The position numbers and the translations under genes are program-made. Positions 34,354 through 51,613 of a DNA stretch of 64,000 nucleotides are shown here, piece after piece. This DNA comes from Bacillales bacterium UBA4682 (GTDB lineage: Bacteria; Bacillota_I; Bacilli_A; RFN20; CAG-288). The stretch spans positions 122,821 through 186,820 of the forward strand of contig DHKY01000004.1 of the NCBI GenBank assembly GCA_002404995.1. Reading direction: 5' to 3'. The notes below the pieces were generated by a model. It did no database searches and was not told the DNA's origin. It saw only the letters and a list, made by a program, of their open reading frames with translations. Positions within the stretch are counted from its first letter, which is position 1. Every line of letters begins with the position of its first letter.

Positions 34354-34443
34354 TGGCGGAGTGAGAGAGATTTGAACTCTCGCAGGGATTACTCCCTCTA
34401 AGTCCTTAGCAGGGACTCCTCTTAACCACTTGAGTATCACTCC
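34354..34443 (-). tRNA. tRNA-Ser (anticodon GCU), CCA encoded
   Basis: Minus strand GGAGTGATACTCAAGTGGTTAAGAGGAGTCCCTGCTAAGGACT...long variable arm...GGTTCAAATCTCTCTCACTCCGCCA. Anticodon loop CTGCTAA. Confidence 0.9.
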
Positions 34444-37979: not shown

Positions 37980-39428
37980 TTATTTGACCTCCGTGAATTC
38001 TGTGTTGTTACGGCAGACAATCTGGTAGGAAATCTTGCTGGTGGATTTATGGTAGGAATAGATGCCTTTCAGATTGAAGGTCTTTCCGACAAACTGTTCC
38101 GGAGAGCTATAAGTCGAACCGCTCTCATTGGTGTAAACAAACGGAAGGTAGACAGAGAAGCCAAGCGAATTGCCGAGATTGTTTCGAACAGTGAGAGTCC
38201 AATTGCCACTATCATCCTTATAGGCGCTTTCAACCTGGACAGGATCCTCTACATCCACACGGGAATAGAGATATTCGAAGCTCTGGTTTTCCCTATCGCT
38301 TTGAATCTGGCTTGTCGTCTTTTCAAACGTGTGCGGATAATGCTCAATATCAGTAGGATCATTATTGTCCTCTGCACTGATAATCACCTTTGCATCATCT
38401 TCGCTTTTCGAAGTATACTTGAAGCTTCCGCCAGAGGCCTGGAAGCCGAAGGTTTCACTATCGGTTGCAACACCGCAAACCTGGAGATAAGCACCGGTCT
38501 TTGTGAATTTTGTCGGAATAGCAGACCTTCCAGTATAGAAGTTAAGACCAGCATATTCGCCGTAATCATATTTACCGCCATCCTCTTTAGAGAAATACTC
38601 GGTCAGATAGAGGGTATTGTTTGCATAAGAAGTAACCGTTGCGGTGAAACGGATATTCTTGCCAGCAAACGAATTTGTTCTTGACGGATCTTTGAGGCAA
38701 GCCTCAATTTCGCGCTTGATATCGAGCAAGGAGACATCCTCGTAAGCACCATAATTGAAGAGGGGATCCGGTTGGTCGGAGAACAGATTCAGCTTCAGAT
38801 TACGTGCCTGTTTCTCGGCATCGTAGAAAATCTTGGAAATCTCATCGCCGAGATTCGCGACATTCTTGACGTTAGACCAGCCTTCCTGGACAAGGAGAAG
38901 ATTCAGCATCTCCCTTTCATCCATCGCAGCATTCTTCTTGGAAGTGTTGATCCAGATACAGCAGACATAACGGCTGCCAGTGGAGTCCACCTGCGGAACA
39001 CCATCGGTCAAAGAGTCGGAAGAAATGACAATCGTGCCATTCTGATTGGCTTCTTTGAGCTTCTCAGTCGTGAAGTTGCTGGCACCTTTGCCATATGGCT
39101 GGATTTTTCCAGTCGATTCTGGAGTATCAATACCGAAGAAACGTGCTTTGATGACGGTGCTTTTATCCTGAAGATAGAAATGAGCCGTATCGCCATCAAT
39201 CGGAGTCTTGAGCGTTACCTGTTCGATACCATCGGTCAAGAAGTTCTTGTTCTTGTATTCACGCCTAAGAGGAACCTTGGCAGCATAATCGATTTTTTCT
39301 CCAGTCGGAGTATTTTCACTTGCCGAAGGAGTAGGATTTTCGCTCACTTGATCCGATGGTTTGTTTCCCTGGCAGGATGCCAAGGAGAGAAGCAAGGGAA
39401 GGAGAAGGATTAATTTAAGATTCTTCAT
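37980..39428 (-). CDS. Lipoprotein nuclease with SNase (thermonuclease) domain
   Basis: LLSLASC lipobox. ...DGDTAHFYL...ARFFGIDTPES... SNase catalytic signature. Confidence 0.75.
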   Translation of the reverse strand: MKNLKLILLLPLLLSLASCQGNKPSDQVSENPTPSASENTPTGEKIDYAAKVPLRREYKNKNFLTDGIEQVTLKTPIDGDTAHFYLQDKSTVIKARFFGIDTPESTGKIQPYGKGASNFTTEKLKEANQNGTIVISSDSLTDGVPQVDSTGSRYVCCIWINTSKKNAAMDEREMLNLLLVQEGWSNVKNVANLGDEISKIFYDAEKQARNLKLNLFSDQPDPLFNYGAYEDVSLLDIKREIEACLKDPSRTNSFAGKNIRFTATVTSYANNTLYLTEYFSKEDGGKYDYGEYAGLNFYTGRSAIPTKFTKTGAYLQVCGVATDSETFGFQASGGSFKYTSKSEDDAKVIISAEDNNDPTDIEHYPHTFEKTTSQIQSDRENQSFEYLYSRVDVEDPVQVESAYKDDSGNWTLTVRNNLGNSLGFSVYLPFVYTNESGSTYSSPEQFVGKTFNLKGIYSYHKSTSKISYQIVCRNNTEFTEVK

Positions 39429-39430
39429 AT

Positions 39431-40936
39431 CTACCTCGATAATTTAGTCTGGTTTTCCGCATCGGCGAAAGCACCATCAATGGTTTTCTTGCCCCTCAAT
39501 GCCTGAACCATCAAGCCTTTGACCTCTTCACGGGCCTTTGCAGAGCCTTTGAAGCAAGGGGTATTCAAATAGCTGCCGCTGATTTTGTCTTTGACAACTT
39601 TCTGAACTTCACCAAGTGTCTCGCCTTCGTTGCAGTATTCGATGAATTCTTCGGTCTGATAGCAGGACTCACGGACAGGAGAGTAGCCTTGAGAATAATA
39701 GAGGGCAAGATCAAGGTTGACTGTCGTAGAAGTCAGATATTTAAGGAACTTCCAGGCATACTTGACCTTCCTTCCGTCTTCATCGTCCTTGGTCTTAAGA
39801 AGAGTCAAAGTAACACCCTGGGTAATGTATTTCGGATTGTTGTTGGCATAAGGAACCTTAGCAACACCGACAGTGAAATTATCGCCAGAAGGAATCGTGT
39901 ATCCAGAACCTCCGGACGAACCGATATTGAAGAGGACTTCGCCTGTTTTGAAAAGATCCGATCCGTATTTGTTATCGTTCGTGCCTTTCGTGCAGAAGAC
40001 CTTATTGTCGTAGTCGGCTTTCAAATCTCGAACAAAGGCTTTTGCCTCAGGATTGTTGAATTCGATTTTGCCTTTTCCGTTCTCGATAGAGGTGTAAGGA
40101 ATATTCCGCTGATAGCATTGGGAAATGAAGAAGTTATCATCCGAGTCATAGCAGAAAGGATATTGGAGATTATCTCCAGCCTTTCCTTTATAGCTTCCGT
40201 TTTTGATGTTCTTTGCCACATAACGGCAGAAATTCCTGAACTCATCATAGGATAAGTCATCCCTGAAGGAGAGAAGCTGATCCGAATTCCTGCCAAGATG
40301 TTCATCCTCATTGTATTGGCTGAGAATGCTTGCCGTCAGCTCTTTATTGTAGAAGATAACCTCGGTGGACTTCAGAACCGGAAGAGAATACCTTCCTTCC
40401 CGGATATAATGCTGGCCCTCGTCATAGAAGGCGGGAAGGAAATCCGAGGCCTCGCCATCGCCGATATAGCTTTCCTTGCCAAAACCGATTTTCTCGTCCG
40501 TAGCAAGTTCTGCTAAATTGACGACATATTTTCCAGGGACAGACTCTGCAGCAATATAATCCGCAACATGATCTGGATAAGCGACGGCAATGGTCGGAAA
40601 GTCACCCGTGTTGAAGCCGCTCACAATCTTATTGTGGATATCGGCATAGGATCCTTGGTAGGCATCCTGACCGGCATTGATGGAAATATCAACACCTTCG
40701 TTTTCCTTTACGAGCTTTGCAAACTCATCGGCTTTATTCTGGAATTCATCCTGAAGTCCGGCACCGAAAGTATGCCACCTGTTGATCTGGATGGTTCCTT
40801 TTGAGGGCGTGGTCGTCTGACTGGTTCCGCTTCCGGAAGCAGCTCCGCTAGTAGCGGAGCTATTATTTCCAGAACAGGATACCCTTGAACCCAAAAGGAT
40901 GGGAAGAAGGGCAAGAATCTTGATTTTCTGTTTCAT
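39431..40936 (-). CDS. ABC transporter substrate-binding lipoprotein (family 1 solute-binding)
   Basis: 501 aa with signal peptide and a Cys. Directly upstream of the second SBP and the permease/ATPase genes. Confidence 0.7.
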   Translation of the reverse strand: MKQKIKILALLPILLGSRVSCSGNNSSATSGAASGSGTSQTTTPSKGTIQINRWHTFGAGLQDEFQNKADEFAKLVKENEGVDISINAGQDAYQGSYADIHNKIVSGFNTGDFPTIAVAYPDHVADYIAAESVPGKYVVNLAELATDEKIGFGKESYIGDGEASDFLPAFYDEGQHYIREGRYSLPVLKSTEVIFYNKELTASILSQYNEDEHLGRNSDQLLSFRDDLSYDEFRNFCRYVAKNIKNGSYKGKAGDNLQYPFCYDSDDNFFISQCYQRNIPYTSIENGKGKIEFNNPEAKAFVRDLKADYDNKVFCTKGTNDNKYGSDLFKTGEVLFNIGSSGGSGYTIPSGDNFTVGVAKVPYANNNPKYITQGVTLTLLKTKDDEDGRKVKYAWKFLKYLTSTTVNLDLALYYSQGYSPVRESCYQTEEFIEYCNEGETLGEVQKVVKDKISGSYLNTPCFKGSAKAREEVKGLMVQALRGKKTIDGAFADAENQTKLSR

Positions 40937-40971: not shown

Positions 40972-42516
40972 TTACTTAACTGCAAGTAAGCAAGCATTGT
41001 AAGCATCATCAAAGAGCTTGCTGAGTTCTTCCTGATATTCTTCGCCAGTCTTCGTGGAGTTGAGAGAGTTGGTAAGAACGCCGGAAACCTGTGTACGGGC
41101 AGTAGAAGAGCCTAAGAAGGCAGGGGAGACGAATAAGGAATTGAGGACCTTCTCATCCGTGGAATAAGTCCTGTTACGGGCTAAAAGCCTGTCTAAGGTA
41201 TTCAGGTCTTTTCCACGGGTAGTGGCAGCTTCCTGATAATCTTCGCTCTCAGTAACGGACTTACGGATGCCCATATAACCAGAGTTGATTGCCCAGTCTA
41301 AGCAGTTCTCTTTATTCGTGATGGTCTTATATAAGAGCCAAGATGCAAGCTTACGGTTCTCATCGTCATGGTCAAGGATGGTCAGAGACGGACCCTGGTT
41401 GATAATGGCAAGGTCTTTTCCTTCGGCATGCGGAATCGGGGCAACGCCGACATCCCTCGGATTGGAGGAAGAGAACTGATATTTGTAACCACCGGTAGAA
41501 CCGACGGAGAAAAGCGTATTCTGAGTGTTGAAATAAGCGTTGGTGTAGTTGTCTCCGGCAATACCCTTAGTAATCAAATATCCCTTCTCTTTGTATTCGT
41601 GGAACTTGGTAAGAAGGGCCATCCTCTTGGTCTTGTTCTCGCCTTCTCCGAAATCGAAGTGTCCTTTGCCGTCCGCACCGATGGAAGTATAGCCAATGCC
41701 ATACTGCTTTGCTAAGGTGATGAAGAGGTTATCATCAGAGTCATAAGCAAAGACAGCGTGATAGGTGTCATCGCTCTTTAAGATCTTCTTGTCATCCGGA
41801 AGCTGAGAATTGTATTTGATTAAGGCCGGGCAGAGCTTATTGAAAAGTTCTTCCCAGGTAAGATTATTGAAATAAGCTTCATCAAGGGATTTTCCACCAT
41901 TGATAGAAGAATCGATGGAATGAAGATCAAGTCCGACTAAGACGCCCTTGTTGTAATACCTGGCTTCAGTGGATTTGCAATACGGAACAGAATAGGTTCC
42001 TTCAACAGCGTAGGCACTTCCCTCTTCTAAGAAGGCAGGATAGATGTCATCCTTATCTTCTTTTGTCCATCCATAGGTGGCGTTGTTGATATAGGGATCA
42101 AGATTGACAGCTTTGCCGTAGTTGATGTACTCAGCAACATGGTCTGGATAGCACTGGACCCTGTCCGGATAATCGCCAGTAGCAAGCTTAGTGACGACAG
42201 CACTCTTTAATTCGTTGTAACCCATACCGGTCTGGATGGTATTGGTAACCGTGACATTCGGTTCAAGCTTCCTGAATTCATCGATATAGCTCTGAAGCTG
42301 GGCCTGGTTGTTCTGTCCAGTGATGGACCATAATTCGATAGTGGTCTTTTCCTTAATCTGCGGAACATACTCGCCGCTCGTATTGGAATTCTGGACATCA
42401 GAAGCAGTAGGAGCCGGTTCTGCACTCGGTTTCACTTCTCCGGAATCGGAAGAACCATTGTTGCATCCAGTAAGAATCAAAGGCAGTAAGAACAGAACAG
42501 ATAATTTCTTTTTCAT
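40972..42516 (-). CDS. ABC transporter substrate-binding lipoprotein (second SBP)
   Basis: LILTGC lipobox. 514 aa. Confidence 0.7.
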   Translation of the reverse strand: MKKKLSVLFLLPLILTGCNNGSSDSGEVKPSAEPAPTASDVQNSNTSGEYVPQIKEKTTIELWSITGQNNQAQLQSYIDEFRKLEPNVTVTNTIQTGMGYNELKSAVVTKLATGDYPDRVQCYPDHVAEYINYGKAVNLDPYINNATYGWTKEDKDDIYPAFLEEGSAYAVEGTYSVPYCKSTEARYYNKGVLVGLDLHSIDSSINGGKSLDEAYFNNLTWEELFNKLCPALIKYNSQLPDDKKILKSDDTYHAVFAYDSDDNLFITLAKQYGIGYTSIGADGKGHFDFGEGENKTKRMALLTKFHEYKEKGYLITKGIAGDNYTNAYFNTQNTLFSVGSTGGYKYQFSSSNPRDVGVAPIPHAEGKDLAIINQGPSLTILDHDDENRKLASWLLYKTITNKENCLDWAINSGYMGIRKSVTESEDYQEAATTRGKDLNTLDRLLARNRTYSTDEKVLNSLFVSPAFLGSSTARTQVSGVLTNSLNSTKTGEEYQEELSKLFDDAYNACLLAVK

Positions 42517-42564: not shown

Positions 42565-43545
42565 TTAGCCTTTAATACCAGCACGGCCAACACCGCGCCT
42601 GATATATTTACGGAAAACGACGAAGAGAAGGAACAGAGGAACCGTAACGAATACCGTAGCAGCCATCTGGTATCCATAGCTCGTCCTTCCGGTATCGACA
42701 TCGGTGAACGCCGATCCTCGGAGACCATTGGATATCAAGCGGAAATCAGATTTCGAAGTGACAAGGTTCGGCCAGACATAGGAGTTCCAGGTACCCATGA
42801 ACTTAAGAATCGTAATGGAGATAATGGTAGGAAGTGCAAGAGGGACCCTGACTTTCCATAAGAACGACCAATCGGATTTGCCATCGACTTTGGCAGAGAG
42901 ATAAAGCTCATTCGGAATCTGTTTGAAGTTCTGACGAAGCAAATAGATGTAGAAGACCGAGATCCAGAACGGAACAATCATGGCTAGATAAGCATCCATT
43001 CTTGTCTGTCCGGTTCCCGTCCAGCCAAAGGAAGCGACCGTGATATAGTTGGAAATGACCATCCTCTCGCCAGGAATCATCCTAGTCCTTAGGAATACCC
43101 TGAAGACAGCGTCCCGTCCTTTGAAGTTCAGTCGTGCAAAGGCAAAGGCGCCGAGGATTGTCGTAATCAAAGTACCCAGGGTAGAGAAGACGGCGACAAC
43201 GAGCGTATTGACCAGGTATTTGGAGAAATCGAATTTGTCTAAGGCATAGACATAGTTCGACCACCTGATGATTGTCGGATAGAAGGTCTGCTTGGATGCG
43301 ATGACTTCGCTGTTGGACTTCAGCGAGGTGATGATCCTCCAGTAGAACGGGAAGATCCTCAGCAAGGCTAAGAAACCGATAATGATGTATAGAAGCGTAA
43401 TCGAAGCGATATGTCCGATTTTCTGACGACGGCGGATTGTCTCGACAGTTGCGCCGGATTCCTCTAGGGAGAGCTCGATTTCCGGTTTGACTTTGGATTT
43501 CTCGAAGTTTGGATAAGAAGTCTTTTCAATTGCAGTGTTTTCCAT
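42565..43545 (-). CDS. ABC transporter permease (MalG-like)
   Basis: 6 TM, EAA-like loop ...DAYLAMIVPF... Confidence 0.85.
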   Translation of the reverse strand: MENTAIEKTSYPNFEKSKVKPEIELSLEESGATVETIRRRQKIGHIASITLLYIIIGFLALLRIFPFYWRIITSLKSNSEVIASKQTFYPTIIRWSNYVYALDKFDFSKYLVNTLVVAVFSTLGTLITTILGAFAFARLNFKGRDAVFRVFLRTRMIPGERMVISNYITVASFGWTGTGQTRMDAYLAMIVPFWISVFYIYLLRQNFKQIPNELYLSAKVDGKSDWSFLWKVRVPLALPTIISITILKFMGTWNSYVWPNLVTSKSDFRLISNGLRGSAFTDVDTGRTSYGYQMAATVFVTVPLFLLFVVFRKYIRRGVGRAGIKG

Positions 43546-43559
43546 GATTCAAGACCTCC

Positions 43560-44624
43560 TTAGTAGTGGACCTTCTTCTTACTGACCGCAAGCTGCAAGA
43601 CAGTAAAGACAAGAATGATGACGAAGAGGAAGACAGCAGCGGCTGCTGCATAGGTTACATGGTCGCCGATGTTGTTGTAGATGTAGTAGACGATGGTGTA
43701 CCTGTTATAGCTTCCGCTCGTGGTTCCCGGCCCGTTGAACAAACCGACGATGGCAGTGTATTCCTTGAAGGCACCGATGAAGGAGGTGACGATGATGTAG
43801 AGAATCTGCGGAGACCTTAACGGAACCGTAATCTTCCAAAGAATCTTGGCGGAGCTTGCACCATCGACTTTGGCAGCGTTGTAATACTGCTTATCGATGT
43901 TCTGAAGTCCGGAGAGGAAGATCAGAATCTTAAACGGAAGGGAAGACCAGATGATATAGAAGCAAAGAGGAAGCATGGCGTGAAGACGATCCGCGCCGTA
44001 AATCCAGTTTGTTTCCGTATGGAAGATATAGTTGATGATACCGTTCTTATCGAAGATGACCGCGAAGACCCTACCGATTGCAATAGCGTTGGTGACATAA
44101 GGAAGGAAGAAGACGGTCTGAAGGAATTTCTTGAAGAAGGGCAGAGCATTCAAACCGACACTGATCAATAAGGCAATCAAGGTCGCAAGCGGAACCGTGA
44201 CTAAGACAATAATGAAGGTGTTTGGAATAGCATAGCGGGAGAAATTGACTTCCTGTCCGCCGTTTTCGAGTTTCCTTCCGAAGATAGCACCGAAGTTCTC
44301 CCAAGTGAATCCTTTGTTCGTGCCATCAATCTGGTTGTAGTCTTTCCTAAAGGAAATGGCAATCGTATTAATCAAAGGATAGAGAAGGAAGATGACAAGC
44401 AAGACGATAACCGGAGCAAGATAGAGCCAGCCTTTCCAGTTGTTCTGGCTGGCAACATCTTCGATTCCGGTCACCTTATACGGCTTCTGGTTTTTCTTTT
44501 TTGGCTTGACTAAGCGGATAACGGTATTGTTTCCTTCCTGATAGCCTTCCGAATAATCCGGACGGGCATCGAAGAAATCGTTATGCGCAGTCAGGCTCTT
44601 TTCCTGGCGGAGCGTATCAGGCAT
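43560..44624 (-). CDS. ABC transporter permease (MalF-like)
   Basis: Start ATG at 44624 overlaps the ATPase stop (ATGCCTGA) with GGGAG SD. The track start at 44672 is less likely. ...GASSAKILWKITVP... Confidence 0.8.
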   Translation of the reverse strand: MPDTLRQEKSLTAHNDFFDARPDYSEGYQEGNNTVIRLVKPKKKNQKPYKVTGIEDVASQNNWKGWLYLAPVIVLLVIFLLYPLINTIAISFRKDYNQIDGTNKGFTWENFGAIFGRKLENGGQEVNFSRYAIPNTFIIVLVTVPLATLIALLISVGLNALPFFKKFLQTVFFLPYVTNAIAIGRVFAVIFDKNGIINYIFHTETNWIYGADRLHAMLPLCFYIIWSSLPFKILIFLSGLQNIDKQYYNAAKVDGASSAKILWKITVPLRSPQILYIIVTSFIGAFKEYTAIVGLFNGPGTTSGSYNRYTIVYYIYNNIGDHVTYAAAAAVFLFVIILVFTVLQLAVSKKKVHY

Positions 44625-46593
44625 TTTCGCTCTCCCATTCCCTAGGAATCCGTTCCTCGGTTGTCTTATCAAAGATGAAACACTTGTTCGGTTTCACCTT
44701 GAAGAAGCAATCCTGATTGACTTTGGCTTCGCTTGGAACAATAGCTTTGAAGGTTTCCTTCGTACAGCTTGGATTCTTAGCCACAACGAATAAGTCACGT
44801 CCTAAGACCTGCCTCATCTCCATCTTAGCGGAGAAGCCAAGTCCTTCTTTGTTTTCTAAGGAAATCCTTCCTTCCGGACGGATAGCAATCGTGACATCCT
44901 GATCCTTGACTTCGTTCTTGAAGGAAAGAATCTTTTCGTCTCCGATATAAACGCCGTGGTCATGGACCTTGCCAGAAAAGACGTTGATCGGCGGATTTCC
45001 TAAGAACTGAGCAACAAACAGGTTGACTGGAGAATTATAGACATCCTGCGGAGCACCGATCTGCTGTTCTTCGCCGTTTTTCCTGACAACGATCCTATCG
45101 CAGATGGACCTTGCCTCTTCCTGGTCATGGGTAACGAAGACCATGGTGATTCCGGTTTCGCGCTGGATACGCTTGATTTCCTCACGGGTCTGGAGACGTA
45201 AACGGGCATCCAAGTTGGAGAGCGGCTCATCGAGAAGAAGCCTCTTCGGTTTCTTGACCAGAGCACGGGCAATGGCAACACGCTGCTGCTGACCGCCGGA
45301 GAGCTGACTCGGCTTACGGTCTAAGTATTCGTCGACCTGGACAAGCTTTGCCGTCTCATAGACAATCTCTGCACGTTCGGATTTCGTAAGAGAACGATGG
45401 GTGATTGCTGTCTTCCTTTCGGTCTTGACATCATTCAAGCCAAGAGAAGAGGTCAGGAATTCGACTCCTTCCTTGCTTTGTTCTTCCGTGGTATGGACAA
45501 GAATGAGGAAGATATAAAGCTGTTCATCCTGATAGTAAAGCTTCAGATCCGAGAAACGGAACCCTTTCTGGCGAAGGGACTTCTTAATCGAAGAAGTGAA
45601 TTTCTGGTCATTGACAGAGGTGATTGAGAAACTAGTGCTAGCAAAAGCAACGGCCGAGGAAATCTTGTCTTCCCTTTCCTTGCGCTTAGAAGAAAGCCTA
45701 TTGGTAATACGGGCGATGAGCTCGTATCCGCTCTTGGCTTTCCTGATGGAGACAGCCTCGACATGTCCGTAGTCTTTTCCGATATTGCGGATTGCCTTGA
45801 TTGTGTCATCCCTCTTATCGGTAGTGAAATCACGGGGAAGCTTGCCTAAGAAGTTCAAAGAAATCTTCTCAAGTTCAAGCCTCTGGGTAACCTTGGCGCG
45901 GATTTTGGTATCATACAGGGCTTCGCTAGACTGGACTTCTTTCTCATCCGTCTTTGTCCTAGGAATGACTTCGCAGACATGGGATGTGAAGAGCTCTTTC
46001 AGCTCACGTGCGACATTCTTCAGATGGAAGTTCAGAACGAGTTCTTTACCTTCATAATCCGAAGAAACATTCTTGTCTTTCCTCTTTGAAACATCGTTTC
46101 CATCCAGATTCCTTTCCAGGACGAAATTCTTCTTGGTGAAGCCGATACGTTTGGCAAGAGAGAAGAAAGACTCCCGGATACCTTCGACATGGTCTTTCTT
46201 TGTCCTCTTATAGGAATAAGACAAATCAAAATCGAAGAAGGTAACAAGCGGAACCTCGACCTTCAGATTCGTAAGCGGGAATTCGATATTTTTGAAGATG
46301 GTCCTATGCGGATAAAGAGCATAGTTCTGGAAAACCAAACCGATACCGCGCTTTTCCGGAGACAAGTTCGTGACTTCCTGGTCACCGAACCAGACTTCAC
46401 CGGAAGTCGGCTTCTGCAATCCGGAAATCCTGTATAAGGTCGTAGACTTACCACAGCCGGAAGGACCAAGGAGTCCTACAAGCTTTCCATCCGGAACAAC
46501 GAAATCGAGGTTATTCACGGCAATCGTATCGTGAATGTTCTTTTTCGCATTTCCGGCAAAGATTTTCGTCAGATTCTTGAGTTTGATTTCCAT
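44617..46593 (-). CDS. ABC transporter ATP-binding protein (MalK/UgpC-like) with ~300-aa insertion in the helical subdomain
   Basis: Walker A GPSGCGKST, Q-loop VFQNYALYPH, then ~300 K/E-rich residues before LSGGQQQRVAIARAL, Walker B LLLDEPLSNLD, H-loop VTHDQ, C-terminal TOBE-like domain. Confidence 0.85.
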   Translation of the reverse strand: MEIKLKNLTKIFAGNAKKNIHDTIAVNNLDFVVPDGKLVGLLGPSGCGKSTTLYRISGLQKPTSGEVWFGDQEVTNLSPEKRGIGLVFQNYALYPHRTIFKNIEFPLTNLKVEVPLVTFFDFDLSYSYKRTKKDHVEGIRESFFSLAKRIGFTKKNFVLERNLDGNDVSKRKDKNVSSDYEGKELVLNFHLKNVARELKELFTSHVCEVIPRTKTDEKEVQSSEALYDTKIRAKVTQRLELEKISLNFLGKLPRDFTTDKRDDTIKAIRNIGKDYGHVEAVSIRKAKSGYELIARITNRLSSKRKEREDKISSAVAFASTSFSITSVNDQKFTSSIKKSLRQKGFRFSDLKLYYQDEQLYIFLILVHTTEEQSKEGVEFLTSSLGLNDVKTERKTAITHRSLTKSERAEIVYETAKLVQVDEYLDRKPSQLSGGQQQRVAIARALVKKPKRLLLDEPLSNLDARLRLQTREEIKRIQRETGITMVFVTHDQEEARSICDRIVVRKNGEEQQIGAPQDVYNSPVNLFVAQFLGNPPINVFSGKVHDHGVYIGDEKILSFKNEVKDQDVTIAIRPEGRISLENKEGLGFSAKMEMRQVLGRDLFVVAKNPSCTKETFKAIVPSEAKVNQDCFFKVKPNKCFIFDKTTEERIPREWESENA

Positions 46594-46603
46594 AATCTAT
46601 CTC

Positions 46604-48112
46604 CTATTTCGTTCCGTCATCGCTTGACCTGTCGTCCAGTTTCAGTCTTTCCTTCTCCTTTCGCTGCTTCCAATTCTTGAAGGCAGTGATACCGGATTTG
46701 ATGAAGAATCCGATAGCGAAGATAGAAAGGATAGAAAGAACAACAATGAAGTTATCGACAGGGTTATAAACCGTCATCGTATTATTGAACTGGTTTCCAC
46801 GAAGTATGATGAAGAAGATATCGAAGAGGAAGACGCCGAGAGAAGCAGAGATGAGGATGGAGCGAAGGAGGAAGCGTTTGTTATTGACGCGTCGGAATTC
46901 ATCATTGCGGAACTTTTTCTTCTCATAGAAGAAGAGTCCTGTAGCAAGTCCGCCGAAGACGACAAGATAGAGAACAATAGACAGGATCGTAATCCTAGTG
47001 AAGTTATGTTCCTTGATGTCGTTCCTCTCATGTTTCAGAGGATTGCCGGAATAGAAGGTAAGACGTCCGATACGGGCCTTGTACTCGGTAGATGTAATAT
47101 CCTTTTCCGAAGAAGTATAGCGGAGTTTCCTCGAGAAGCCGATGTGAGCCAAAGAGAAGTACTCGATTTCCCCCTCTGGAAGATCCTTGAACAGGATGCA
47201 GTATTTCTGCTTTCCGTTCTTAAGAAGCATCGTAGAGCCAAGCGAACCTTCCCTTGCGCTCCGTTCCACAGTCTCGCCGTTCTTTAACGTAATCTGGAAC
47301 ACCGCGTCTTTCAATGAAGGAATGGTATCGTAGAAGTAGACTTCTCCACTCTCAATCTTTGATTTCCATTTCTTATAAGCAGAGGCTTTCAGCTCTCCGT
47401 ACCGGCTTTCCCTGTCGTTCGTAATTGTCAGGGAAAATGCGGCATATTTTCCAAATGTGGAGATTTCCTCGATGGAACCATAAAGGTTTTCGCTCAATTC
47501 CACATTGTTTTTAGCAGCGCCTTCAATCGTAGTTTTCTGTCCATCGTAGTAGTATTTCTTGTCCAGGACAGGAACAAAGCCTTTGCTTTGACGTTCCGCA
47601 AGATAAATATTGAAGTATTTCAAAGTCGAGCGATTGATCGTCTCCCCTTCTTTCTTAGGAAGATCAATATCAATCCTCAAGGTGCGGGCACCGATATTGT
47701 ATCCAATACCATCGTAAGGGTTGTTTTCAGAAACTTTGCGGCAGCTCGTTTCACGCCTTTCCGTACTCTTTCCGTCTTCTAAGACAACCTGGTACTGGAC
47801 AACCAAAGGAAGATACCTATCGCCTTCGCCATAGTATCCGAAAATGAAATCCAGAGAGGACGTGTTGGTTTCGAACTCAACATGGTAAGACTGAGAAGAA
47901 GCAGTCGAACTCGAAATCGTCCTGTAGGATACCAGTGTCGAATCGATAGTATCTGCTCTTTCCCTCCCTGCATTCGAGTGGAGGTTTTCCGTCACTGTAT
48001 TCAGGAGAGGTCCTTTCACAGAACTTTTTGTCCGGTTAGGAACAGTAAACGACACTAACGAAAAAGCCAATGGCAGAACCAATGTGGATAGTAAAACGTC
48101 TTTTGCTTTCAT
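46604..48112 (-). CDS. Secreted/membrane-anchored hypothetical protein (signal peptide, large ecto-domain, 3 C-terminal TM)
   Basis: 502 aa with AGGAG SD. First gene behind its own promoter, ahead of the ABC genes. Confidence 0.55.
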   Translation of the reverse strand: MKAKDVLLSTLVLPLAFSLVSFTVPNRTKSSVKGPLLNTVTENLHSNAGRERADTIDSTLVSYRTISSSTASSQSYHVEFETNTSSLDFIFGYYGEGDRYLPLVVQYQVVLEDGKSTERRETSCRKVSENNPYDGIGYNIGARTLRIDIDLPKKEGETINRSTLKYFNIYLAERQSKGFVPVLDKKYYYDGQKTTIEGAAKNNVELSENLYGSIEEISTFGKYAAFSLTITNDRESRYGELKASAYKKWKSKIESGEVYFYDTIPSLKDAVFQITLKNGETVERSAREGSLGSTMLLKNGKQKYCILFKDLPEGEIEYFSLAHIGFSRKLRYTSSEKDITSTEYKARIGRLTFYSGNPLKHERNDIKEHNFTRITILSIVLYLVVFGGLATGLFFYEKKKFRNDEFRRVNNKRFLLRSILISASLGVFLFDIFFIILRGNQFNNTMTVYNPVDNFIVVLSILSIFAIGFFIKSGITAFKNWKQRKEKERLKLDDRSSDDGTK

Positions 48113-48207: not shown

Positions 48208-49269
48208 TTATTCATCGAGTCTATCCGGTGCAACAAACGAAGCAGAAACTTTCTTTCCGGAGGAATGAGCCCTGGTAGCTTCCGCAAGCGAATAGTAAAT
48301 TGGTTCAATAGAATCATCGATTTCGTAAAGTCCGAGCCTGTATTCGCCGAAATCCTGTCGGTTCTTTGTGAAGGCAAGCCTGGAGATGTCGATGATCAAA
48401 GGAAGGCCAAAGGTAAGAAAGGAAAGAGAGATGATTGCAAACCTGCGGATAAATCCATAGGCAAGATATCTCCCCGTCCGGACATGAAGAAGCGAATGTT
48501 CTGTCAGTCCGATTTTGTAAATCAGCCTGCCGATTGTCTTTCTGCTCCGCTTCCTGATAAGACAAGGAAGCCTGTAAGTCAGAAACGAAGCAAGGACCAC
48601 TGCGATAGGAAGCTCAAGTGCAATCCTGTAGATGCTCTCTGAGTGAATGTCCTTCTGGTACTGAGGAAAATAGTTGTAAAGGATTTTATTGGCTTCGACA
48701 TCGAAATAGTCTTCATAGACTTTGTTATAGTCCGCCCATTTGGCCTGGCATTCCTTGTTTTCGGAAATCTGATTGTCCGATAGAACAAACCTTGGAATAT
48801 CGTTGAAATTGGCTTTTAGAAGATAGGAGTCAAATCCCGTCTTAATTTCATTGTATTCATTCTCAGAGAGCTTTTCCTTGCAATAGGAGAAAAACGTGTA
48901 GAGTCCTTCCTGATAGGACTTCTTTTTCCCAAATTCCGTGACATCGGAATTGTCTTTATAATAAGAGACAAGATCAATGTCCTTCCCGTTTCTGGTCCTA
49001 TAAACACCGCTATCCGTCTTATGAAGATGGATTCTTTCTTCCCTGTTTTTATAGCTCGGAGTAGTCTGGACAATCGAACGGGCAGTAAAGAAAAAGAGGA
49101 CGCCTAAAGCAACACAGATAAATAAATCAATGATTCTAGCCATGACCCGCTTAGTCCTATCTGCGCGGTGGTATTTGATGTTGACCTTCGGAGTCTCTTG
49201 TTGAATCGGTTTTGGATTCCTGTTATCCATTTTATTGCTTGCTCCTTGGTAATTGTTCATAGTCGGCAC
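48208..49269 (-). CDS. RDD-family-like membrane protein, paralog B (start likely ATG at 49230)
   Basis: RVMARIIDLFICVALGVLFF and ...IRKRSRKTIGRLIYKIGL... An ATG at 49230 sits 1 nt after the upstream gene's stop with AAGGAG upstream. An alternative start at 49269 overlaps the upstream gene. Confidence 0.6.
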   Translation of the reverse strand: MPTMNNYQGASNKMDNRNPKPIQQETPKVNIKYHRADRTKRVMARIIDLFICVALGVLFFFTARSIVQTTPSYKNREERIHLHKTDSGVYRTRNGKDIDLVSYYKDNSDVTEFGKKKSYQEGLYTFFSYCKEKLSENEYNEIKTGFDSYLLKANFNDIPRFVLSDNQISENKECQAKWADYNKVYEDYFDVEANKILYNYFPQYQKDIHSESIYRIALELPIAVVLASFLTYRLPCLIRKRSRKTIGRLIYKIGLTEHSLLHVRTGRYLAYGFIRRFAIISLSFLTFGLPLIIDISRLAFTKNRQDFGEYRLGLYEIDDSIEPIYYSLAEATRAHSSGKKVSASFVAPDRLDE

Positions 49270-50308
49270 TGGATATCAGCACGGATGAGGACAGCCAATC
49301 GGAGAAGGAACGGTTGAGGGAATTAATCAGAAGGAAAACCAGAGAGACGAGATCTAAGGCAAGTCCAGAGAGACTGACAGATAAAGTAGGGAAAGAGAAA
49401 AGCTGGGTGAAAGGAATATAGAAGCAAGGAAGGAAAATCAGATAAGGCAGCGTAAAGAGCCTATTGAGGATAAAGCTGTAGCATCGTTTTCCGCGTGAAA
49501 GAGTTCGGAATCCATTCACATTGATTCGGTCGGTCTTCCTCGCCATCCTGCCAAGTGTCTTTCCCCGCTTATGGATCATGGGAACAAGGAGGAAGCAGAT
49601 AACAGAAGAAAGAAGAAAAGAAAGAATCGAGCAGATTACGACTGAATAATTGAAATTCTTCTGGCCCTGTTTCCTTTTTCCGTCTGCACTTTGGAAAGCA
49701 GTGAAAAAGGGGCCTTGGTTTTCTTCGCTTTCCCTATCCTTCAGCCTGTTTCCGTACCTCCTGGCAAAAAAGCTGTTCTTGAAGTAGGTGAGATCCGTCT
49801 TGCCTTTCTCGGTCAGTTCGTCCTTTTCGTCTAAGAGCGGAAGGAATTCCTCTCGGTATTTCTCTTTCCTTTTCCTTTTATCCCCATCTGGTTCGAAGAA
49901 CACGTTCGAACTGGTGTGATTATAGATATCCTGCAAGCCTTCCATCGTTATCTTCTTGATACCAATATAGTAGTTCTTGAAATAATCGTTGCTTCCGTCA
50001 CTCAGTTGCCCTTTCAGGAAAAGAAGCGAAGAGTATTCCCTAATCAAAGAAGTATCATCGTTCTCCATCTCATCCGTCTTCGAAAGAAGGCCAGAGGAAA
50101 AAAGAAGATTCCTCTTCTCATCCTGTCCTTCTTTTTCAATCCGCTGTGCTTCCTTGACTGCTGGAACCATCTTGCTGATTGGATAACAGCAGAGAGAGAA
50201 AAGAGAAAGTCCTACAATAAAGGCAATAAAGAAATCGGCAAGAAAAACAAGAATACGGCGGCATTTTCCAAGCGGTGAAAGATCAATATAGTTTGTAGTT
50301 TTTTCCAT
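49232..50308 (-). CDS. RDD-family-like membrane protein, paralog A
   Basis: GKCRRILVFLADFFIAFIVG, long K/E-rich loop, ...IHKRGKTLGRMARKTDRINVNG..., C-terminal TMs. Its ATG abuts the stop of the SIR2-like gene (TAAATG). Confidence 0.6.
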   Translation of the reverse strand: MEKTTNYIDLSPLGKCRRILVFLADFFIAFIVGLSLFSLCCYPISKMVPAVKEAQRIEKEGQDEKRNLLFSSGLLSKTDEMENDDTSLIREYSSLLFLKGQLSDGSNDYFKNYYIGIKKITMEGLQDIYNHTSSNVFFEPDGDKRKRKEKYREEFLPLLDEKDELTEKGKTDLTYFKNSFFARRYGNRLKDRESEENQGPFFTAFQSADGKRKQGQKNFNYSVVICSILSFLLSSVICFLLVPMIHKRGKTLGRMARKTDRINVNGFRTLSRGKRCYSFILNRLFTLPYLIFLPCFYIPFTQLFSFPTLSVSLSGLALDLVSLVFLLINSLNRSFSDWLSSSVLISSADYEQLPRSKQ

Positions 50309-51613
50309 TTAAAGTTTCGAGAGATAGACTCCAATCTCACTATAATCATCAACCCAGATCACAATCAAATCAAAAGTAAAGAAATAGCTCGTCAGGTTCC
50401 GGTAAACCGAGGTAGAATACCCGTTTTCCTTCTTCAGGAAAATGAAATTGAATTTCAGGTAGTTCCGTGCAAGTTCCAGAATTCGTTTCCTGTCGGGATC
50501 CGTAAGAGAAATACCGATAAACAGACAGGCATTGAATTTAAAATCATGAAGTTGCTTCGCGATATTCCAGGAATAAGGATTATTGTACAGATAATAGTAA
50601 TCCGATTCCGTGAAGACAAGAGAATCCGTGTACCGCTTTTCTTTGCTTTTCCCGTACGGAAGCAATCCATGCACGTGATAAATATCGACCTTGGCTTCTT
50701 TATCCACAAACGAGTTCTCATCGTAGACAACCGTATAGCGAACATCCTTTTTCTTCAGCAGATATTCGAGATTCGTGTCATAGTTATAGGTAATAACACT
50801 CGTCTGCCGGTGCTTGGAAAGATATTCGTAGCAATGATAAAGAGTCGATTCCTCATTATCAAAAGTGAATTCATTGTCATAAGAATAGAGTTCATTATCA
50901 AGACAACGATAAAAGTCAAATCCGGAAGTCTTCCTGATCCTAGGAGAAGTAAAGAGTTCTTCGCCTACATAATGATGAATCTGGTCCGCGAACCGGGAAT
51001 CCCCTTGATAGAAATCCGTATTCAAGGATTCCATGAGCGAATTCCAGCTTTTTCCACCATAGTCTTCATTGATTCCGGCGCCGATAACAAGATCCACATG
51101 CAGTTTGCAGGTATAAAGCTTCCTAAGCCAGAGAATGAACGTTTCAGCAGAATCGTTCTTACCATGGAAATTATTATCCGAATCAAGGTGATAAAGAATA
51201 TCATCCGTAATCGATTCTTTTTTCTGACGGAAGCGAAGGGAAACCTTCTCTCCCTCCCTATAACCCGTTGCAAAGAACTCACGGCCATCGAAATAGATGT
51301 TCCTGGAAGCCTCTGGTTCATAAAACTCGCCTTCCCGCACAGAAGGAACTTTTACAATATTCCTATTGCCCATGACATCTAGTTTCCTGTAGTTGAAGCG
51401 TGCCCTGGTATCGTAGATATGAATCACGTATTTATGAACATGATCCTTCTTCGAATAGACAATCGCTTTAAAATTGCAGGTCGGGTCAAAGGAAAAACCA
51501 AAGGATCGAAGAATCACATGATCAAAAGGGACATTCTTAAAATAAAACCTGAACAGAGAAAGAAGAAGTCCCTTTTTTCGATAGATATAATAATCCCGTT
51601 CCTGTTTTTCCAT
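50309..51613 (-). CDS. SIR2_2-family (SIR2-like) protein with uncharacterised ~170-aa N-terminal domain
   Basis: Motifs read from the translation: LHVDLVIGAGINEDYGGKSWNSL, SVITYNYDTNLEYLL, DIYHVHGLLPYG, ACLFIGISLTDPDRKRILE. This is the canonical GAG..., TxNYD, HxHG, GxSxxD order of SIR2_2 (PF13289-like). Confidence 0.65.
   Translation of the reverse strand: MEKQERDYYIYRKKGLLLSLFRFYFKNVPFDHVILRSFGFSFDPTCNFKAIVYSKKDHVHKYVIHIYDTRARFNYRKLDVMGNRNIVKVPSVREGEFYEPEASRNIYFDGREFFATGYREGEKVSLRFRQKKESITDDILYHLDSDNNFHGKNDSAETFILWLRKLYTCKLHVDLVIGAGINEDYGGKSWNSLMESLNTDFYQGDSRFADQIHHYVGEELFTSPRIRKTSGFDFYRCLDNELYSYDNEFTFDNEESTLYHCYEYLSKHRQTSVITYNYDTNLEYLLKKKDVRYTVVYDENSFVDKEAKVDIYHVHGLLPYGKSKEKRYTDSLVFTESDYYYLYNNPYSWNIAKQLHDFKFNACLFIGISLTDPDRKRILELARNYLKFNFIFLKKENGYSTSVYRNLTSYFFTFDLIVIWVDDYSEIGVYLSKL

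What the first reader, a model, noticed from the sequence alone, without database searches (positions are those of the whole stretch)
44617..46593. ABC ATPase with a ~300-residue insertion between the Q-loop and the signature motif
Normal MalK/UgpC-type ATPases have ~35 residues between VFQNYALYPH... and LSGGQ. Here about 300 K/E/R-rich residues (FPLTNLKVEVPL ... ETAKLVQVDEYLDRKPSQLSGGQQQR) are inserted into the helical subdomain. All catalytic motifs and the C-terminal TOBE domain are intact. The insertion could be a regulatory or partner-binding module. The frame stays open throughout, so it is not a pseudogene.
Basis: seen in the sequence. Interest (0 to 1): 0.55.

Follow-up and report, generated by a model that had tools for sequence, protein, structure and literature searches.

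The report
Three-domain insert in ABC importer ATPase
A sugar-type ABC importer ATPase from an uncultured gut Bacillus carries a real, conserved, well-folded 290-residue insert of three ferredoxin-like domains in the part of the motor that talks to the membrane subunits; nothing like it has been named, and its job is unknown.

Summary
ORF 44617-46593 (-) encodes a 658-aa MalK/UgpC/MsmX-type ATPase. All catalytic motifs and the C-terminal MalK-like domain are present. About 290 residues (aa 110-399) are inserted exactly between positions 102 and 103 of solved homologues, after the first helix of the helical subdomain.

It is not an artefact, a fusion or a pseudogene. At least 99 species-level genomes of uncultured gut and rumen Bacilli carry it at the same residue, as intact 631-657 aa ORFs in conserved synteny. 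dN/dS of the insert is 0.05-0.15.

AlphaFold models the insert confidently (pLDDT 89.6) as three beta-alpha-beta-beta-alpha-beta (ferredoxin-like) modules. The middle module is nested inside the third and is absent from 541-551 aa short forms. No Pfam, NCBIfam or PDB sequence matches it, and no protein outside this ATPase family does either. Fold matches are weak and generic: tandem ACT and other ferredoxin-fold proteins.

The locus matches the Mycoplasma surface-nuclease/ABC-transporter operon thought to import nucleic-acid precursors.

"K/E/R-rich" is partly an artefact: the organism reads AGG as Met, a known recoding, so 10 insert "Arg" are Met.

Function is inferred, not shown: most likely an allosteric or docking module on the coupling subdomain.

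The parts
44617..46593 (-). ABC importer ATPase gene, 658 aa plus stop, CUT1/MalK-UgpC-MsmX type, carrying the insert
   Evidence: ORF. Pfam ABC_tran 1.7e-33 in two stretches. PDB homologues E=1e-82 in two blocks. NCBIfam UgpC subfamily 4.9e-96, below the curated cutoff.
46267..46593 (-). N-terminal part of the NBD (aa 1-109): Walker A, Q-loop and the first helix of the helical subdomain, ending in the invariant KNxEFPLTN
   Evidence: Pairwise identity across 78 family members is 0.90.
45397..46266 (-). The insert (aa 110-399), about 290 residues
   Evidence: Unaligned to any PDB ATPase. AF2 insert-only model has pLDDT 89.6 and pTM 0.73. No Pfam or PDB sequence match. dN/dS 0.05-0.15. GC 0.451 and GC3 0.552, the same as the flanks.
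45922..46245 (-). Module D1 (aa ~117-224): beta-alpha-beta-beta-alpha-beta, present in all family members
   Evidence: Secondary structure. DCA pairs b1-b4 and b1-b3 fit a 4-1-3-2 sheet. Alignment A1.
46045..46104 (-). Low-confidence loop inside D1 (aa 164-183), extra in this genome. It is the same loop that carries a ~55-aa K/E-rich extra segment in P0021 and P0022.
   Evidence: pLDDT below 50. Alignment A1 columns 168-211.
45883..45921 (-). Strand b5 with the conserved SxALFDxxxRA motif (aa 225-237). It is inferred to be the first strand of module D3, separated from the rest of D3 by D2.
   Evidence: D228 and R232 are invariant. DCA b5-b10 and b5-b11 pairs. In short forms b5 directly precedes helix a5.
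45607..45876 (-). Module D2 (aa ~240-329): beta-alpha-beta-beta-alpha-beta, present only in long forms (~614-657 aa) and absent from 541-551 aa forms
   Evidence: Alignment A1. AF2. Pairwise identity 0.33.
45400..45606 (-). Rest of module D3 (aa ~330-398): alpha-beta-beta-alpha-beta, plus the return strand with invariant H399 and R400
45004..45396 (-). C-terminal part of the NBD (aa 400-530): second and third helices of the helical subdomain, LSGGQ, Walker B, D-loop, H-switch
   Evidence: Pairwise identity 0.88.
44620..45003 (-). C-terminal MalK-like (TOBE/OB) domain, aa 531-658
   Evidence: PDB alignment to 2it1 and 2yyz through residues 648-649. Foldseek of the full model hits MalK-type chains. 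Pfam OB_MalK is only E=0.15.
43560..44672 (-). Permease 1 (BPD_transp_1, UgpA/MalF-like). The listed TTG start overlaps the end of the ATPase gene, so the true start is uncertain.
   Evidence: Syntenic in 78 of 80 loci.
42565..43545 (-). Permease 2 (BPD_transp_1, UgpE/MalG-like)
   Evidence: Syntenic in 74 of 80 loci.
40972..42516 (-). Substrate-binding lipoprotein 1 (SBP_bac_8), with a weak match to the Mycoplasma P68 lipoprotein family
   Evidence: Pfam 1.9e-21. NCBIfam lipo_P68 2.1e-9, far below the cutoff.
39431..40936 (-). Substrate-binding protein 2 (SBP_bac_8)
37980..39428 (-). Staphylococcal-nuclease homologue, 482 aa, at the end of the transporter gene row
   Evidence: Pfam SNase 8.2e-11. 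It occupies the same position in L081, L082, L084 and L085.
46604..48112 (-). Conserved upstream membrane protein of unknown family, 502 aa, with an N-terminal hydrophobic segment and three C-terminal hydrophobic segments
   Evidence: No Pfam or NCBIfam family. A homologue lies immediately upstream of the ATPase in 80 of 80 loci.
48208..50308 (-). Two RDD-family membrane proteins (353 and 358 aa) upstream of the 502-aa protein
   Evidence: Pfam RDD 7.7e-7 and 1.5e-4. Syntenic in 57 and 50 of 80 loci. Two to four RDD genes occur in L081-L085.

Best explanation
SHOWN. The gene encodes a working-looking CUT1-type (MalK/UgpC/MsmX-like) ATPase of a binding-protein-dependent ABC importer. A lineage-specific accessory module of about 290 residues is spliced into the variable region of its helical subdomain. 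The splice point lies between the first helix (FPLTN) and the second helix (TKSERAEIV...), three to four residues before the position equivalent to E. coli MalK K106. The module is an ordered structure of three ferredoxin-like beta-alpha-beta-beta-alpha-beta units. D1 comes first, and D2 is nested after the first strand of D3. Short forms of the family have only D1 and D3. The module is under strong purifying selection and is fixed at the same residue throughout a large clade of uncultured gut and rumen Bacilli. It always sits in the gene row RDD proteins / unknown membrane protein / ATPase / two permeases / two to three binding lipoproteins / surface SNase-type nuclease. That row is the counterpart of the Mycoplasma nuclease-ABC operon proposed to import nucleic-acid breakdown products.

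INFERRED (mechanism). The helical subdomain must rotate against the RecA-like subdomain for the NBD dimer to close, and it forms the cleft that holds the permease coupling helices. A rigid 33-kDa wing anchored there, one per ATPase and two per transporter, is therefore best placed to act as an allosteric brake or switch. Binding of a cytoplasmic ligand or protein to the ferredoxin/ACT-like modules would restrict or license subdomain rotation, and so ATPase-transport coupling. The logic is that of the C-terminal regulatory domains of MetN (ferredoxin-like), ModC and MalK, implemented at a different site. The most conserved insert residues are E113, D228, R232, D349, K351, Y353, H399 and R400. 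They lie on the connecting strands and neighbouring D3 strands and probably form the fixed interface with the NBD. The more variable D1 and D2 would be the sensing or docking surfaces.
For: Insertion point and intact motifs. Conservation: 99 species-level genomes, with the 80 fetched loci all placing the insert at residue 110, almost all as 631-657 aa ORFs. The top 120 database hits to an insert-less query are all 541-644 aa. Purifying selection: dN/dS 0.05-0.15 in 10 independent close pairs, against 0.015-0.16 for the rest of the protein. Fold: AF2 pLDDT 89.6 and pTM 0.73, with a repeated beta-alpha-beta-beta-alpha-beta pattern. Foldseek best hits are tandem ferredoxin-fold and ACT proteins: 4hhu, 1u8s, 4go5, 2pc6 and 5it4, E about 1e-4 to 3e-3. 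Nested topology: short forms lack exactly D2, and DCA pairs b5 with b10 and b11. Junction and D3-strand residues are invariant while D1 and D2 are 33-45% identical. Role of the helical subdomain in rotation and EAA-loop coupling: PMC6906923. Precedent for ferredoxin-like regulatory domains on type I importer ATPases: PMC4245157. Operon context and the Mycoplasma parallel; PMC3585158 and PMC9740415.
Against: No ligand, partner or regulatory effect is shown. The ferredoxin-like fold is among the commonest folds. Foldseek TM-scores are low (0.2-0.35), and no ACT, NIL or other Pfam profile matches, so 'ACT-like sensor' is an analogy, not a classification. The protein already has a MalK-type C-terminal regulatory domain, so a second regulatory module is not obviously needed. 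The position of MalK K106 at the EAA interface is recalled from the cross-linking literature, not tested here.
Confidence: 0.4

Rival explanations
1. Docking platform. The insert is a structural adaptor that ties the ATPase to the other conserved products of the locus, namely the 502-aa membrane protein and the two to four RDD membrane proteins, or to cytoplasmic salvage enzymes. This would build a larger uptake complex rather than sense a ligand.
For: A homologue of the 502-aa protein lies immediately upstream of the ATPase in 80 of 80 loci, and RDD genes precede it in most. The order is the same in short, 614-aa and long forms. The insert emerges beside the membrane-facing coupling interface (PMC6906923). 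D1 and D2 evolve at rates similar to the partner proteins.
Against: Synteny could simply reflect a conserved operon next to the str operon. No co-variation or interaction was tested. The RDD and 502-aa proteins have no known link to ABC transporters. Their copy number varies from two to four while the insert architecture stays the same.
Confidence: 0.22
2. Structural expansion segment. The insert is a lineage-specific add-on that became structurally entrenched, for example by stabilising the NBD or its folding in a fast-evolving reduced genome, without a separate regulatory or binding function.
For: It has no homologue outside this ATPase family among 1.84 billion representative proteins. The modules show no recognisable ligand motifs. 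Net charge is about zero and varies between species. Module number varies (D1+D3 or D1+D2+D3), and extra loops are tolerated.
Against: dN/dS of 0.05-0.15 across about 290 residues, and invariant polar residues kept through at least 99 species, are more than entrenchment of a passive spacer usually gives. Building three independently folding domains is costly in a reduced genome.
Confidence: 0.18
3. Cytoplasmic substrate-handling domain. The ferredoxin/RRM-like modules bind the imported nucleotides or oligonucleotides on the inside, for trans-inhibition by product or hand-off to salvage enzymes.
For: The locus carries an SNase-type nuclease and mirrors the Mycoplasma nuclease-ABC operon proposed to import nucleic-acid precursors. 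Foldseek also lists tandem RRM proteins such as 4p6q and 1up1. MetN's ferredoxin-like domain binds its own substrate.
Against: The substrate of the transporter is unknown, since the SBPs are generic sugar-type SBP_bac_8. The insert has no consistent positive charge, with a mean of +1.2 and s.d. 4.2. No RRM or nucleotide-binding profile matches.
Confidence: 0.1
4. Artefact. The insert results from mis-assembly, a missed stop or frameshift joining two genes, or a decaying pseudogene.
For: Some database entries of the family are truncated or frameshifted. P0002 is 472 aa on a 103-kb contig with an out-of-frame tail, and P0009 is 414 aa.
Against: The single ORF has both halves of one NBD split at adjacent residues of the canonical fold. 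The architecture is identical in 80 independent species-level assemblies. GC and GC3 match the flanks. Selection is strongly purifying. AGG(Met) codons occur throughout the insert.
Confidence: 0.01

Closest known systems
MalK / MsmX / UgpC / SugC (CUT1-family ABC importer ATPases; PDB 2yyz, 2it1, 7cad, 6yir, 1q12)
   Same: The NBD has all motifs, and the C-terminal MalK-like beta domain is present. The gene lies in an operon with two BPD_transp_1 permeases and SBP_bac_8 binding proteins. Identity to solved chains over the aligned parts is about 35-42% (Foldseek %id).
   Different: None of the 577 PDB sequences matched has anything at the insertion point. Here about 290 ordered residues are inserted between chain residues 102 and 103. 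The NBD of this family is unusually conserved, at about 90% pairwise identity across genera.
C-terminal regulatory domains of type I importer ATPases: MetN C2/NIL (ferredoxin-like, binds methionine), ModC and MalK RD (PMC4245157)
   Same: These are accessory domains on the ATPase that hold the NBDs apart or together in response to a ligand or protein. MetN's domain has the same general beta-alpha-beta-beta-alpha-beta fold class.
   Different: Those domains are appended at the C-terminus and act at the dimer base. This module is inserted inside the helical subdomain, has three units, has no sequence match to NIL or ACT profiles, and coexists with a MalK-type C-terminal domain.
ACT-domain tandem regulators (aspartokinase beta 4go5/3s1t, AHAS small subunit 2pc6/2f1f, GcvR-like 1u8s, SerB2 5it4)
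   Same: They are the best natural Foldseek matches and share tandem beta-alpha-beta-beta-alpha-beta units.
   Different: E-values are only 1e-4 to 3e-3, TM-scores 0.2-0.35 and identity 8-13%. No ACT Pfam hit is found. The nested D2-in-D3 arrangement is not the ACT tandem arrangement.
Mycoplasma SNase-associated ABC transporter (M. agalactiae MAG_5030-5070, M. pneumoniae Mpn133-136, M. genitalium MG185-189, M. hyopneumoniae Mhp379 locus)
   Same: Same gene set: a surface SNase-type nuclease, P80/P68-type binding lipoprotein(s), one ATPase and two sugar-type permeases. Mpn134 S392 was modelled at the MalK homodimer interface (PMC3293634). That implies roughly 230 extra residues ahead of the D-loop or signature region, so a large insertion is probably present there too. 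From memory, MG187 and MPN134 are about 585 aa.
   Different: An HMM profile of the insert found no Mycoplasma protein. Homology of the inserts is therefore undetected at sequence level and could not be tested by structure here. Gene order also differs: nuclease and lipoprotein lie upstream in Mycoplasma and downstream here.
Soluble ABC ATPases with insertions between the N-terminal lobe and the signature motif: Rad50/SMC coiled coils, UvrA insertion and UvrB-binding domains, the ABC-F (EttA) arm, the eEF3 chromodomain (from memory)
   Same: The region between the Q-loop and the signature motif (helical or signature subdomain) is the place where ABC ATPases have repeatedly accepted partner-binding insertions.
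   Different: Those are non-transport ABC proteins whose inserts have other folds. I know of no described type I importer NBD with a multi-domain insert at this site, and four literature searches found none.

Membership tests
ABC transporter NBD (Pfam ABC_tran), CUT1 MalK/UgpC/MsmX type | Walker A, Q-loop, LSGGQ signature, Walker B with catalytic Glu, D-loop and H-switch, in canonical order | tested here: met
   Positions 43-50, 87-89, 431-435, 452-456, 459-462 and 487-490. Pfam 1.7e-33. PDB homologues at 1e-82.
ABC transporter NBD (Pfam ABC_tran), CUT1 MalK/UgpC/MsmX type | C-terminal MalK-like (TOBE/OB) regulatory domain | tested here: met
   Aligned to 2it1 and 2yyz through residues 648-649. 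Foldseek of the full model hits MalK-type chains. The Pfam OB_MalK hit alone is sub-threshold at E=0.15.
ABC transporter NBD (Pfam ABC_tran), CUT1 MalK/UgpC/MsmX type | Contiguous helical subdomain of about 50 residues between the Q-loop and the signature | tested here: not met
   The gap is 341 residues here, and every PDB and NCBIfam alignment splits into two stretches. NCBIfam UgpC scores 321.9 bits against a cutoff of 432, so it is not an equivalog of any named ATPase.
ABC transporter NBD (Pfam ABC_tran), CUT1 MalK/UgpC/MsmX type | Operon with two BPD_transp_1 permeases and an extracellular solute-binding protein | tested here: met
   Conserved in the related loci.
ACT / NIL-type ferredoxin-like regulatory domains | Beta-alpha-beta-beta-alpha-beta fold | tested here: met
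   AF2 secondary-structure order. Foldseek top hits are ferredoxin-fold and ACT tandems. DCA b1-b4 and b1-b3 pairing supports it. This rests on a predicted structure only.
ACT / NIL-type ferredoxin-like regulatory domains | Sequence-profile membership (Pfam ACT, ACT_4-7, NIL) | tested here: not met
   No such family at E<=1 for the whole protein, nor among the 25 families listed (of 30 hit) for the 20 insert sequences.
ACT / NIL-type ferredoxin-like regulatory domains | Binds a small-molecule effector that changes the activity of the attached enzyme | not testable with these tools
   Needs biochemistry.
Mycoplasma-type nuclease-associated ABC importer locus | SNase-homologue surface nuclease in one gene row with a sugar-type ABC transporter and P80/P68-like binding lipoprotein | tested here: met
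   SNase 8.2e-11 at 37980-39428, and two SBP_bac_8 proteins, one with a weak lipo_P68 match. The row is the same in L081, L082, L084 and L085.
Mycoplasma-type nuclease-associated ABC importer locus | The ATPase insert is homologous to the extra residues of Mpn134, MG187 and MAG_5050 | tested here: inconclusive
   The profile search found no member outside the Bacilli family. The Mpn134 S392 numbering implies extra residues in the same half of the protein. Mycoplasma sequences and structures could not be fetched with these tools.
[quoted passage not shown] | AGG codons sit at positions where relatives have Met or hydrophobic residues, not Arg, and AGG outnumbers ATG | tested here: met
   In the ATPase, AGG columns in 75 relatives read M 383, V 190, I 186, L 133 and F 101, with R absent from the ten commonest residues. 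CGN columns read R 1171. In window ORFs of at least 300 aa, AGG is 2.2% of codons and ATG 0.84%. The paper is cited.
[quoted passage not shown] | tRNA(CCU) with methionine identity elements | not tested
   The only tRNA in the window is tRNA-Ser(GCU).

The most novel reading that the evidence does not exclude
The insert is a previously unrecognised kind of built-in regulator of ABC importers: a sensor or docking module placed inside the coupling (helical) subdomain instead of at the C-terminus. It may also be the ancient hallmark of the nuclease-linked nucleic-acid-precursor importer shared by RFN20 Bacilli and Mollicutes, including the ~585-aa MG187 and MPN134 of the minimal-genome mycoplasmas. 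If so, it would give a mechanistic handle on a near-essential, uncharacterised transporter of minimal cells.
Probability: 0.2. Interest if true: 0.7.

Novelty: new variant of a known kind. Interest (0 to 1): 0.5.

Why it matters
Accessory domains of ABC importer ATPases are known only as C-terminal appendages (MalK, ModC, MetN). A conserved, ordered, three-domain module inside the helical subdomain would be a new place and possibly a new way to control an ABC motor. That subdomain rotates during the ATPase cycle and grips the permease coupling helices.

The module is abundant. It occurs in at least 99 species-level genomes. The 120 best-scoring 90%-identity protein clusters, out of 8000 scored with an insert-less query, are all insert-length (541-644 aa). 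It has no Pfam or NCBIfam model and is annotated only as 'sugar ABC transporter ATP-binding protein'.

The locus appears to be the Bacilli counterpart of the Mycoplasma nuclease-ABC operon believed to feed nucleotide salvage. That system matters for host-dependent, genome-reduced bacteria, and its ATPase has never been examined.

In practice, gene callers using the standard code mistranslate 19 residues of this protein, because AGG is Met.

Tried and rejected
The table-11 translation was used instead, so 10 insert residues are R rather than M in the model.

2. The full-length AF2 model gave a confident insert but pLDDT of about 25 for aa 1-110. The orientation of the insert relative to the NBD could therefore not be read. 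A Foldseek search with that model returned only MalK-type ATPases.

4. Internal duplication was tested with hhalign of D1, D2 and D3 family profiles. Nothing was significant; the best was P=0.006 for D1-D2. The three modules are not detectably paralogous.

5. A search for homologues of the insert outside the ATPase, using an HMM against 1.84 billion representatives, returned 16 hits. All were fragments or chimeric calls of the same family.

6. The third protein search, with an insert-less query, was meant to reach outgroups such as Mycoplasma. The 120 rows shown were all family members, so the outgroup question stays open.

7. Rfam found no riboswitch or leader anywhere in the window that could hint at the substrate.

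8. Four literature searches found no description of such an insertion.

9. Electrostatic nucleic-acid or membrane binding was considered and judged unlikely, because the insert's net charge is about zero and not conserved.

10. Recent horizontal insertion was rejected, because GC and GC3 equal the flanks and AGG(Met) codons occur throughout.

Full report
OBSERVATION. The ORF at 44617..46593 on the minus strand is a single 658-codon frame with an ATG start. Pfam finds ABC_tran (E=1.7e-33) split into two stretches and nothing over the middle of the protein. phmmer against all PDB sequences gives 577 ABC ATPases. The best are archaeal and bacterial MalK-type proteins (2it1 E=3e-82, 2yyz E=8e-81, SugC, MsmX, MalK), and every one aligns in two blocks. 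For 2yyz, query 13-109 matches chain 6-102 and query 400-648 matches chain 103-357. About 290 residues are therefore inserted between two adjacent residues of the canonical fold. The site lies just after the first helix of the helical subdomain (NIEFPLTN) and just before the second (TKSERAEIVYETAKLV). Walker A, Q-loop, LSGGQ, Walker B, D-loop and H-switch are all present, and the C-terminal MalK-like domain aligns to the end.

A CORRECTION TO THE TRANSLATION. The gene has 19 AGG, 4 ATG, 0 AGA and 0 CGA codons. AGG sits where relatives invariably have Met: TLYMISGL, YPHMTI, EEAMS and VVMK. Across 75 relatives, the columns under the window's AGG codons read M 383, V 190, I 186, L 133 and F 101, with Arg not among the ten commonest residues. 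CGN columns read R 1171. In all window ORFs of at least 300 aa, AGG is 2.2% of codons and ATG 0.84%. [quoted passage not shown] Ten apparent Arg residues in the insert are therefore Met, mostly at hydrophobic positions. The insert is K/E/S/L-rich with 4% Arg and a net charge near zero. It is not 'K/E/R-rich'.

NOT AN ARTEFACT. A profile of the insert alone, back-translated and scanned over one genome per GTDB species, found 99 genomes encoding it. The 80 best were fetched. All are MAGs of uncultured gut or rumen Bacilli, including Ca. Enterosoma, Scatoplasma, Enteromonas, Alloenteromonas and 'Clostridium sp. CAG:288'. Some bins carry evidently wrong names. In all 80 loci the insert begins at residue 110. 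In all but a few fragmentary or aberrant loci (for example L027, 433 aa) the ORF is 631-657 aa. An insert-less query against the 5.8-billion-protein set returned 120 top hits that are all 541-644 aa, so the family is large. GC and GC3 of the insert equal those of the flanks. Nei-Gojobori dN/dS for the insert is 0.05-0.15 in ten independent close species pairs, against 0.015-0.16 for the rest of the protein. Pairwise identity across the family is 0.90 and 0.88 for the two NBD parts and 0.52 for the C-terminal domain. It is 0.45, 0.33 and 0.42 for the three insert segments. The insert evolves faster than an exceptionally conserved NBD but is clearly constrained.

ANATOMY OF THE INSERT. Alignment shows a modular build. 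Segment A (aa ~110-237) and segment C (~330-399) occur in every member. Segment B (~240-329) occurs only in the long forms and is missing from the 541-551 aa forms. A 614-aa class also exists. AlphaFold2 on the insert alone, with a 20-sequence MSA, gives pLDDT 89.6 and pTM 0.73. The same region scores 80-90 in the full-length model. The order of elements is b0, b1-a1-b2-b3-a2-b4, b5, b6-a3-b7-b8-a4-b9, a5-b10-b11-a6-b12, b13. That gives two complete beta-alpha-beta-beta-alpha-beta units (D1 and D2). A third unit (D3) has its first strand, b5 with the conserved SxALFDxxxRA motif, lying before D2 in the sequence. In short forms b5 is followed directly by a5, so D2 reads as a domain nested inside D3.

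A mean-field DCA on 173 long-form inserts is noisy (Meff 94). Even so, it puts b1-b4 and b1-b3 (D1, sheet order 4-1-3-2) and b5-b10/b5-b11 among its top pairs, which agrees with this topology. Profile-profile comparison finds no significant similarity between D1, D2 and D3. A disordered 20-residue loop (aa 164-183) between b2 and b3 of D1 is peculiar to this genome. The same loop carries a ~55-residue K/E-rich extra segment in P0021 and P0022.

GENOMIC CONTEXT. On the minus strand the row is as follows:
- rpsL, rpsG, fusA and tuf (56090 to 51735)
- a 434-aa ORF
- two RDD-family membrane proteins
- a 502-aa membrane protein of no known family
- the ATPase
- two BPD_transp_1 permeases
- two SBP_bac_8 lipoproteins, one with a weak match to the Mycoplasma P68 lipoprotein family
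- a 482-aa staphylococcal-nuclease homologue
- a 157-aa zinc-ribbon/TM protein
- a 964-aa Big_2 protein

The 502-aa protein is immediately upstream of the ATPase in 80 of 80 related loci. The permeases follow in 78 and 74 loci, an SBP in 70, and the RDD genes precede in 57 and 50; the missing cases may reflect limited contig or flank length, which was not checked locus by locus. Longer contigs carrying a short-form (548 aa), a 614-aa and a long-form (642 aa) ATPase all show the whole row from the str operon to the SNase and beyond. This gene set is that of the Mycoplasma locus in which a surface SNase-type nuclease (MAG_5040, Mpn133, Mhp379, MHO_0730) and a P80/P68-type lipoprotein accompany a 'sugar-type' ABC transporter. 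That locus is proposed to import nucleic-acid precursors (PMC3585158, PMC9740415). A paper that modelled Mpn134 on MalK places its S392 at the homodimer interface (PMC3293634). The equivalent MalK serines are S135 and S162 by my own count of the sequence, so Mpn134 has about 230-257 extra residues ahead of that point. This agrees with my recollection that MG187 and MPN134 are about 585 aa. A large insertion is therefore probably present in the mycoplasma orthologues too. The insert profile does not detect them, and I could not fetch them to test the position or fold.

HOW IT MOST LIKELY WORKS. Shown: the insert is a folded, selected, three-module structure. It is attached at invariant junctions (KNxEFPLTNLxVEVPL and A.xHRxLTKEER) within the helical subdomain. 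According to the maltose-transporter literature, this subdomain rotates against the RecA-like subdomain on ATP binding. With the RecA-like subdomain it forms the cleft that holds the EAA coupling helices, and it is the most variable part of ABC NBDs (PMC6906923). Inferred: the insertion point corresponds to MalK L102/A103, three or four residues before K106, which I recall as a residue that cross-links to the EAA loops. Each transporter would then carry two 33-kDa wings next to the NBD-TMD interface. The invariant polar residues cluster on the connecting strands and neighbouring D3 strands. They are E113 on b0, D228 and R232 on b5, D349, K351 and Y353 on b10, and H399 and R400 on b13, with DCA linking 229-352 and 114-348. 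I read this cluster as the fixed interface with the equally invariant NBD, and the faster-evolving D1 and D2 as the outward-facing surfaces.

The best-supported mechanism is an allosteric or docking module that couples a cytoplasmic signal or partner to helical-subdomain movement. This is analogous in logic to the C-terminal regulatory domains of MetN (ferredoxin-like), ModC and MalK (PMC4245157). I put this at about 0.4. Three alternatives remain:
- a platform for the co-conserved membrane proteins, 0.22;
- an entrenched structural expansion without separate function, 0.18;
- an internal nucleotide or oligonucleotide binding site, 0.1.

None can be separated with the tools available. An artefact, fusion or pseudogene is excluded.

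NOVELTY AND VERDICT. The ATPase belongs to a known kind, and the recoding and the nuclease-ABC locus type are already described. The insert itself has no model in Pfam or NCBIfam and no solved relative. It is annotated only as part of a 'sugar ABC transporter ATP-binding protein'. Four full-text searches found no description of it. Domain insertions in this region are familiar in soluble ABC proteins such as Rad50/SMC, UvrA, the ABC-F arm and the eEF3 chromodomain (from memory), but not in type I importers. I rate it a new variant of a known kind with moderate interest (0.5). The feature is real, widespread and structurally unusual, and it offers a clear experimental question, but there is no functional evidence yet. 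It may also have been sitting unremarked in mycoplasma genomes since the 1990s.

Noticed in passing
whole window, e.g. ATPase codons 55, 97, 495 and 504; tuf 51735-52925 ([17 protein letters not shown]): AGG is read as Met, not Arg. AGG makes up 2.2% of codons and ATG 0.84% in long ORFs, and AGG aligns to M/V/I/L/F in relatives, with R not among the ten commonest residues. This matches the known AGG-to-Met clade of RFN20/CAG-288 Bacilli (PMC8629427). Standard-code translations of every gene in this window are wrong at these positions. The tuf example is read from the table-11 translation only; its codons were not checked.
   Followed up: yes
window 34558-56090 (minus strand); L081, L082, L084, L085: A long, strongly conserved gene row: str operon (rpsL-rpsG-fusA-tuf), two to four RDD membrane proteins, an unknown 420-700 aa membrane protein, the ATPase, two permeases, two to three SBPs, an SNase homologue, a ~158-aa zinc-ribbon/TM protein and a Big_2 surface protein. 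It looks like the Bacilli counterpart of the Mycoplasma nuclease/ABC nucleotide-salvage locus.
   Followed up: partly
window 46604-48112 (-): A 502-aa protein with an N-terminal hydrophobic segment, a large middle region, three C-terminal hydrophobic segments and a charged tail. It has no Pfam or NCBIfam family, yet a homologue lies directly upstream of the insert-bearing ATPase in 80 of 80 related loci.
   Followed up: partly
window 50309-51613 (-): A 434-aa ORF sits between tuf and the RDD genes. The same slot holds unrelated genes in other genomes (Zip plus an unknown gene in L084; CMD/cupin plus flavodoxin in L085), so it is a variable slot. Its identity was not examined.
   Followed up: no
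P0002, P0009, P0058 and others: Many database entries for this ATPase family are truncated at 414-513 aa even on long contigs. P0002 ends in an out-of-frame tail after LSNLD. These are probably frameshift errors in assemblies. Length alone would make the family look heterogeneous.
   Followed up: partly
P0021 and P0022, alignment A1 columns ~168-211; window aa 164-183 (46045-46104): The b2-b3 loop of module D1 is a hot spot for further insertion. It holds a 20-aa disordered loop here and a ~55-aa K/E-rich, coiled-coil-like segment in P0021 and P0022.
   Followed up: no
window 44617-44672: The permease-1 ORF as listed starts at a TTG that overlaps the last 56 nt of the ATPase gene. An in-frame ATG 16 codons downstream (MPDTLRQ...) is a more likely start. 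Both permeases have N-terminal cytoplasmic extensions of about 40-75 aa relative to UgpA and UgpE.
   Followed up: no
whole window: No Rfam family reaches its gathering score anywhere in the 64 kb, and the only tRNA is tRNA-Ser(GCU) at 34354-34443.
   Followed up: yes
family alignment: The NBD of this ATPase family is about 90% identical between genera whose permeases are 55-75% identical and whose SBPs are 30-65% identical. That is unusually tight conservation for an importer ATPase.
   Followed up: no
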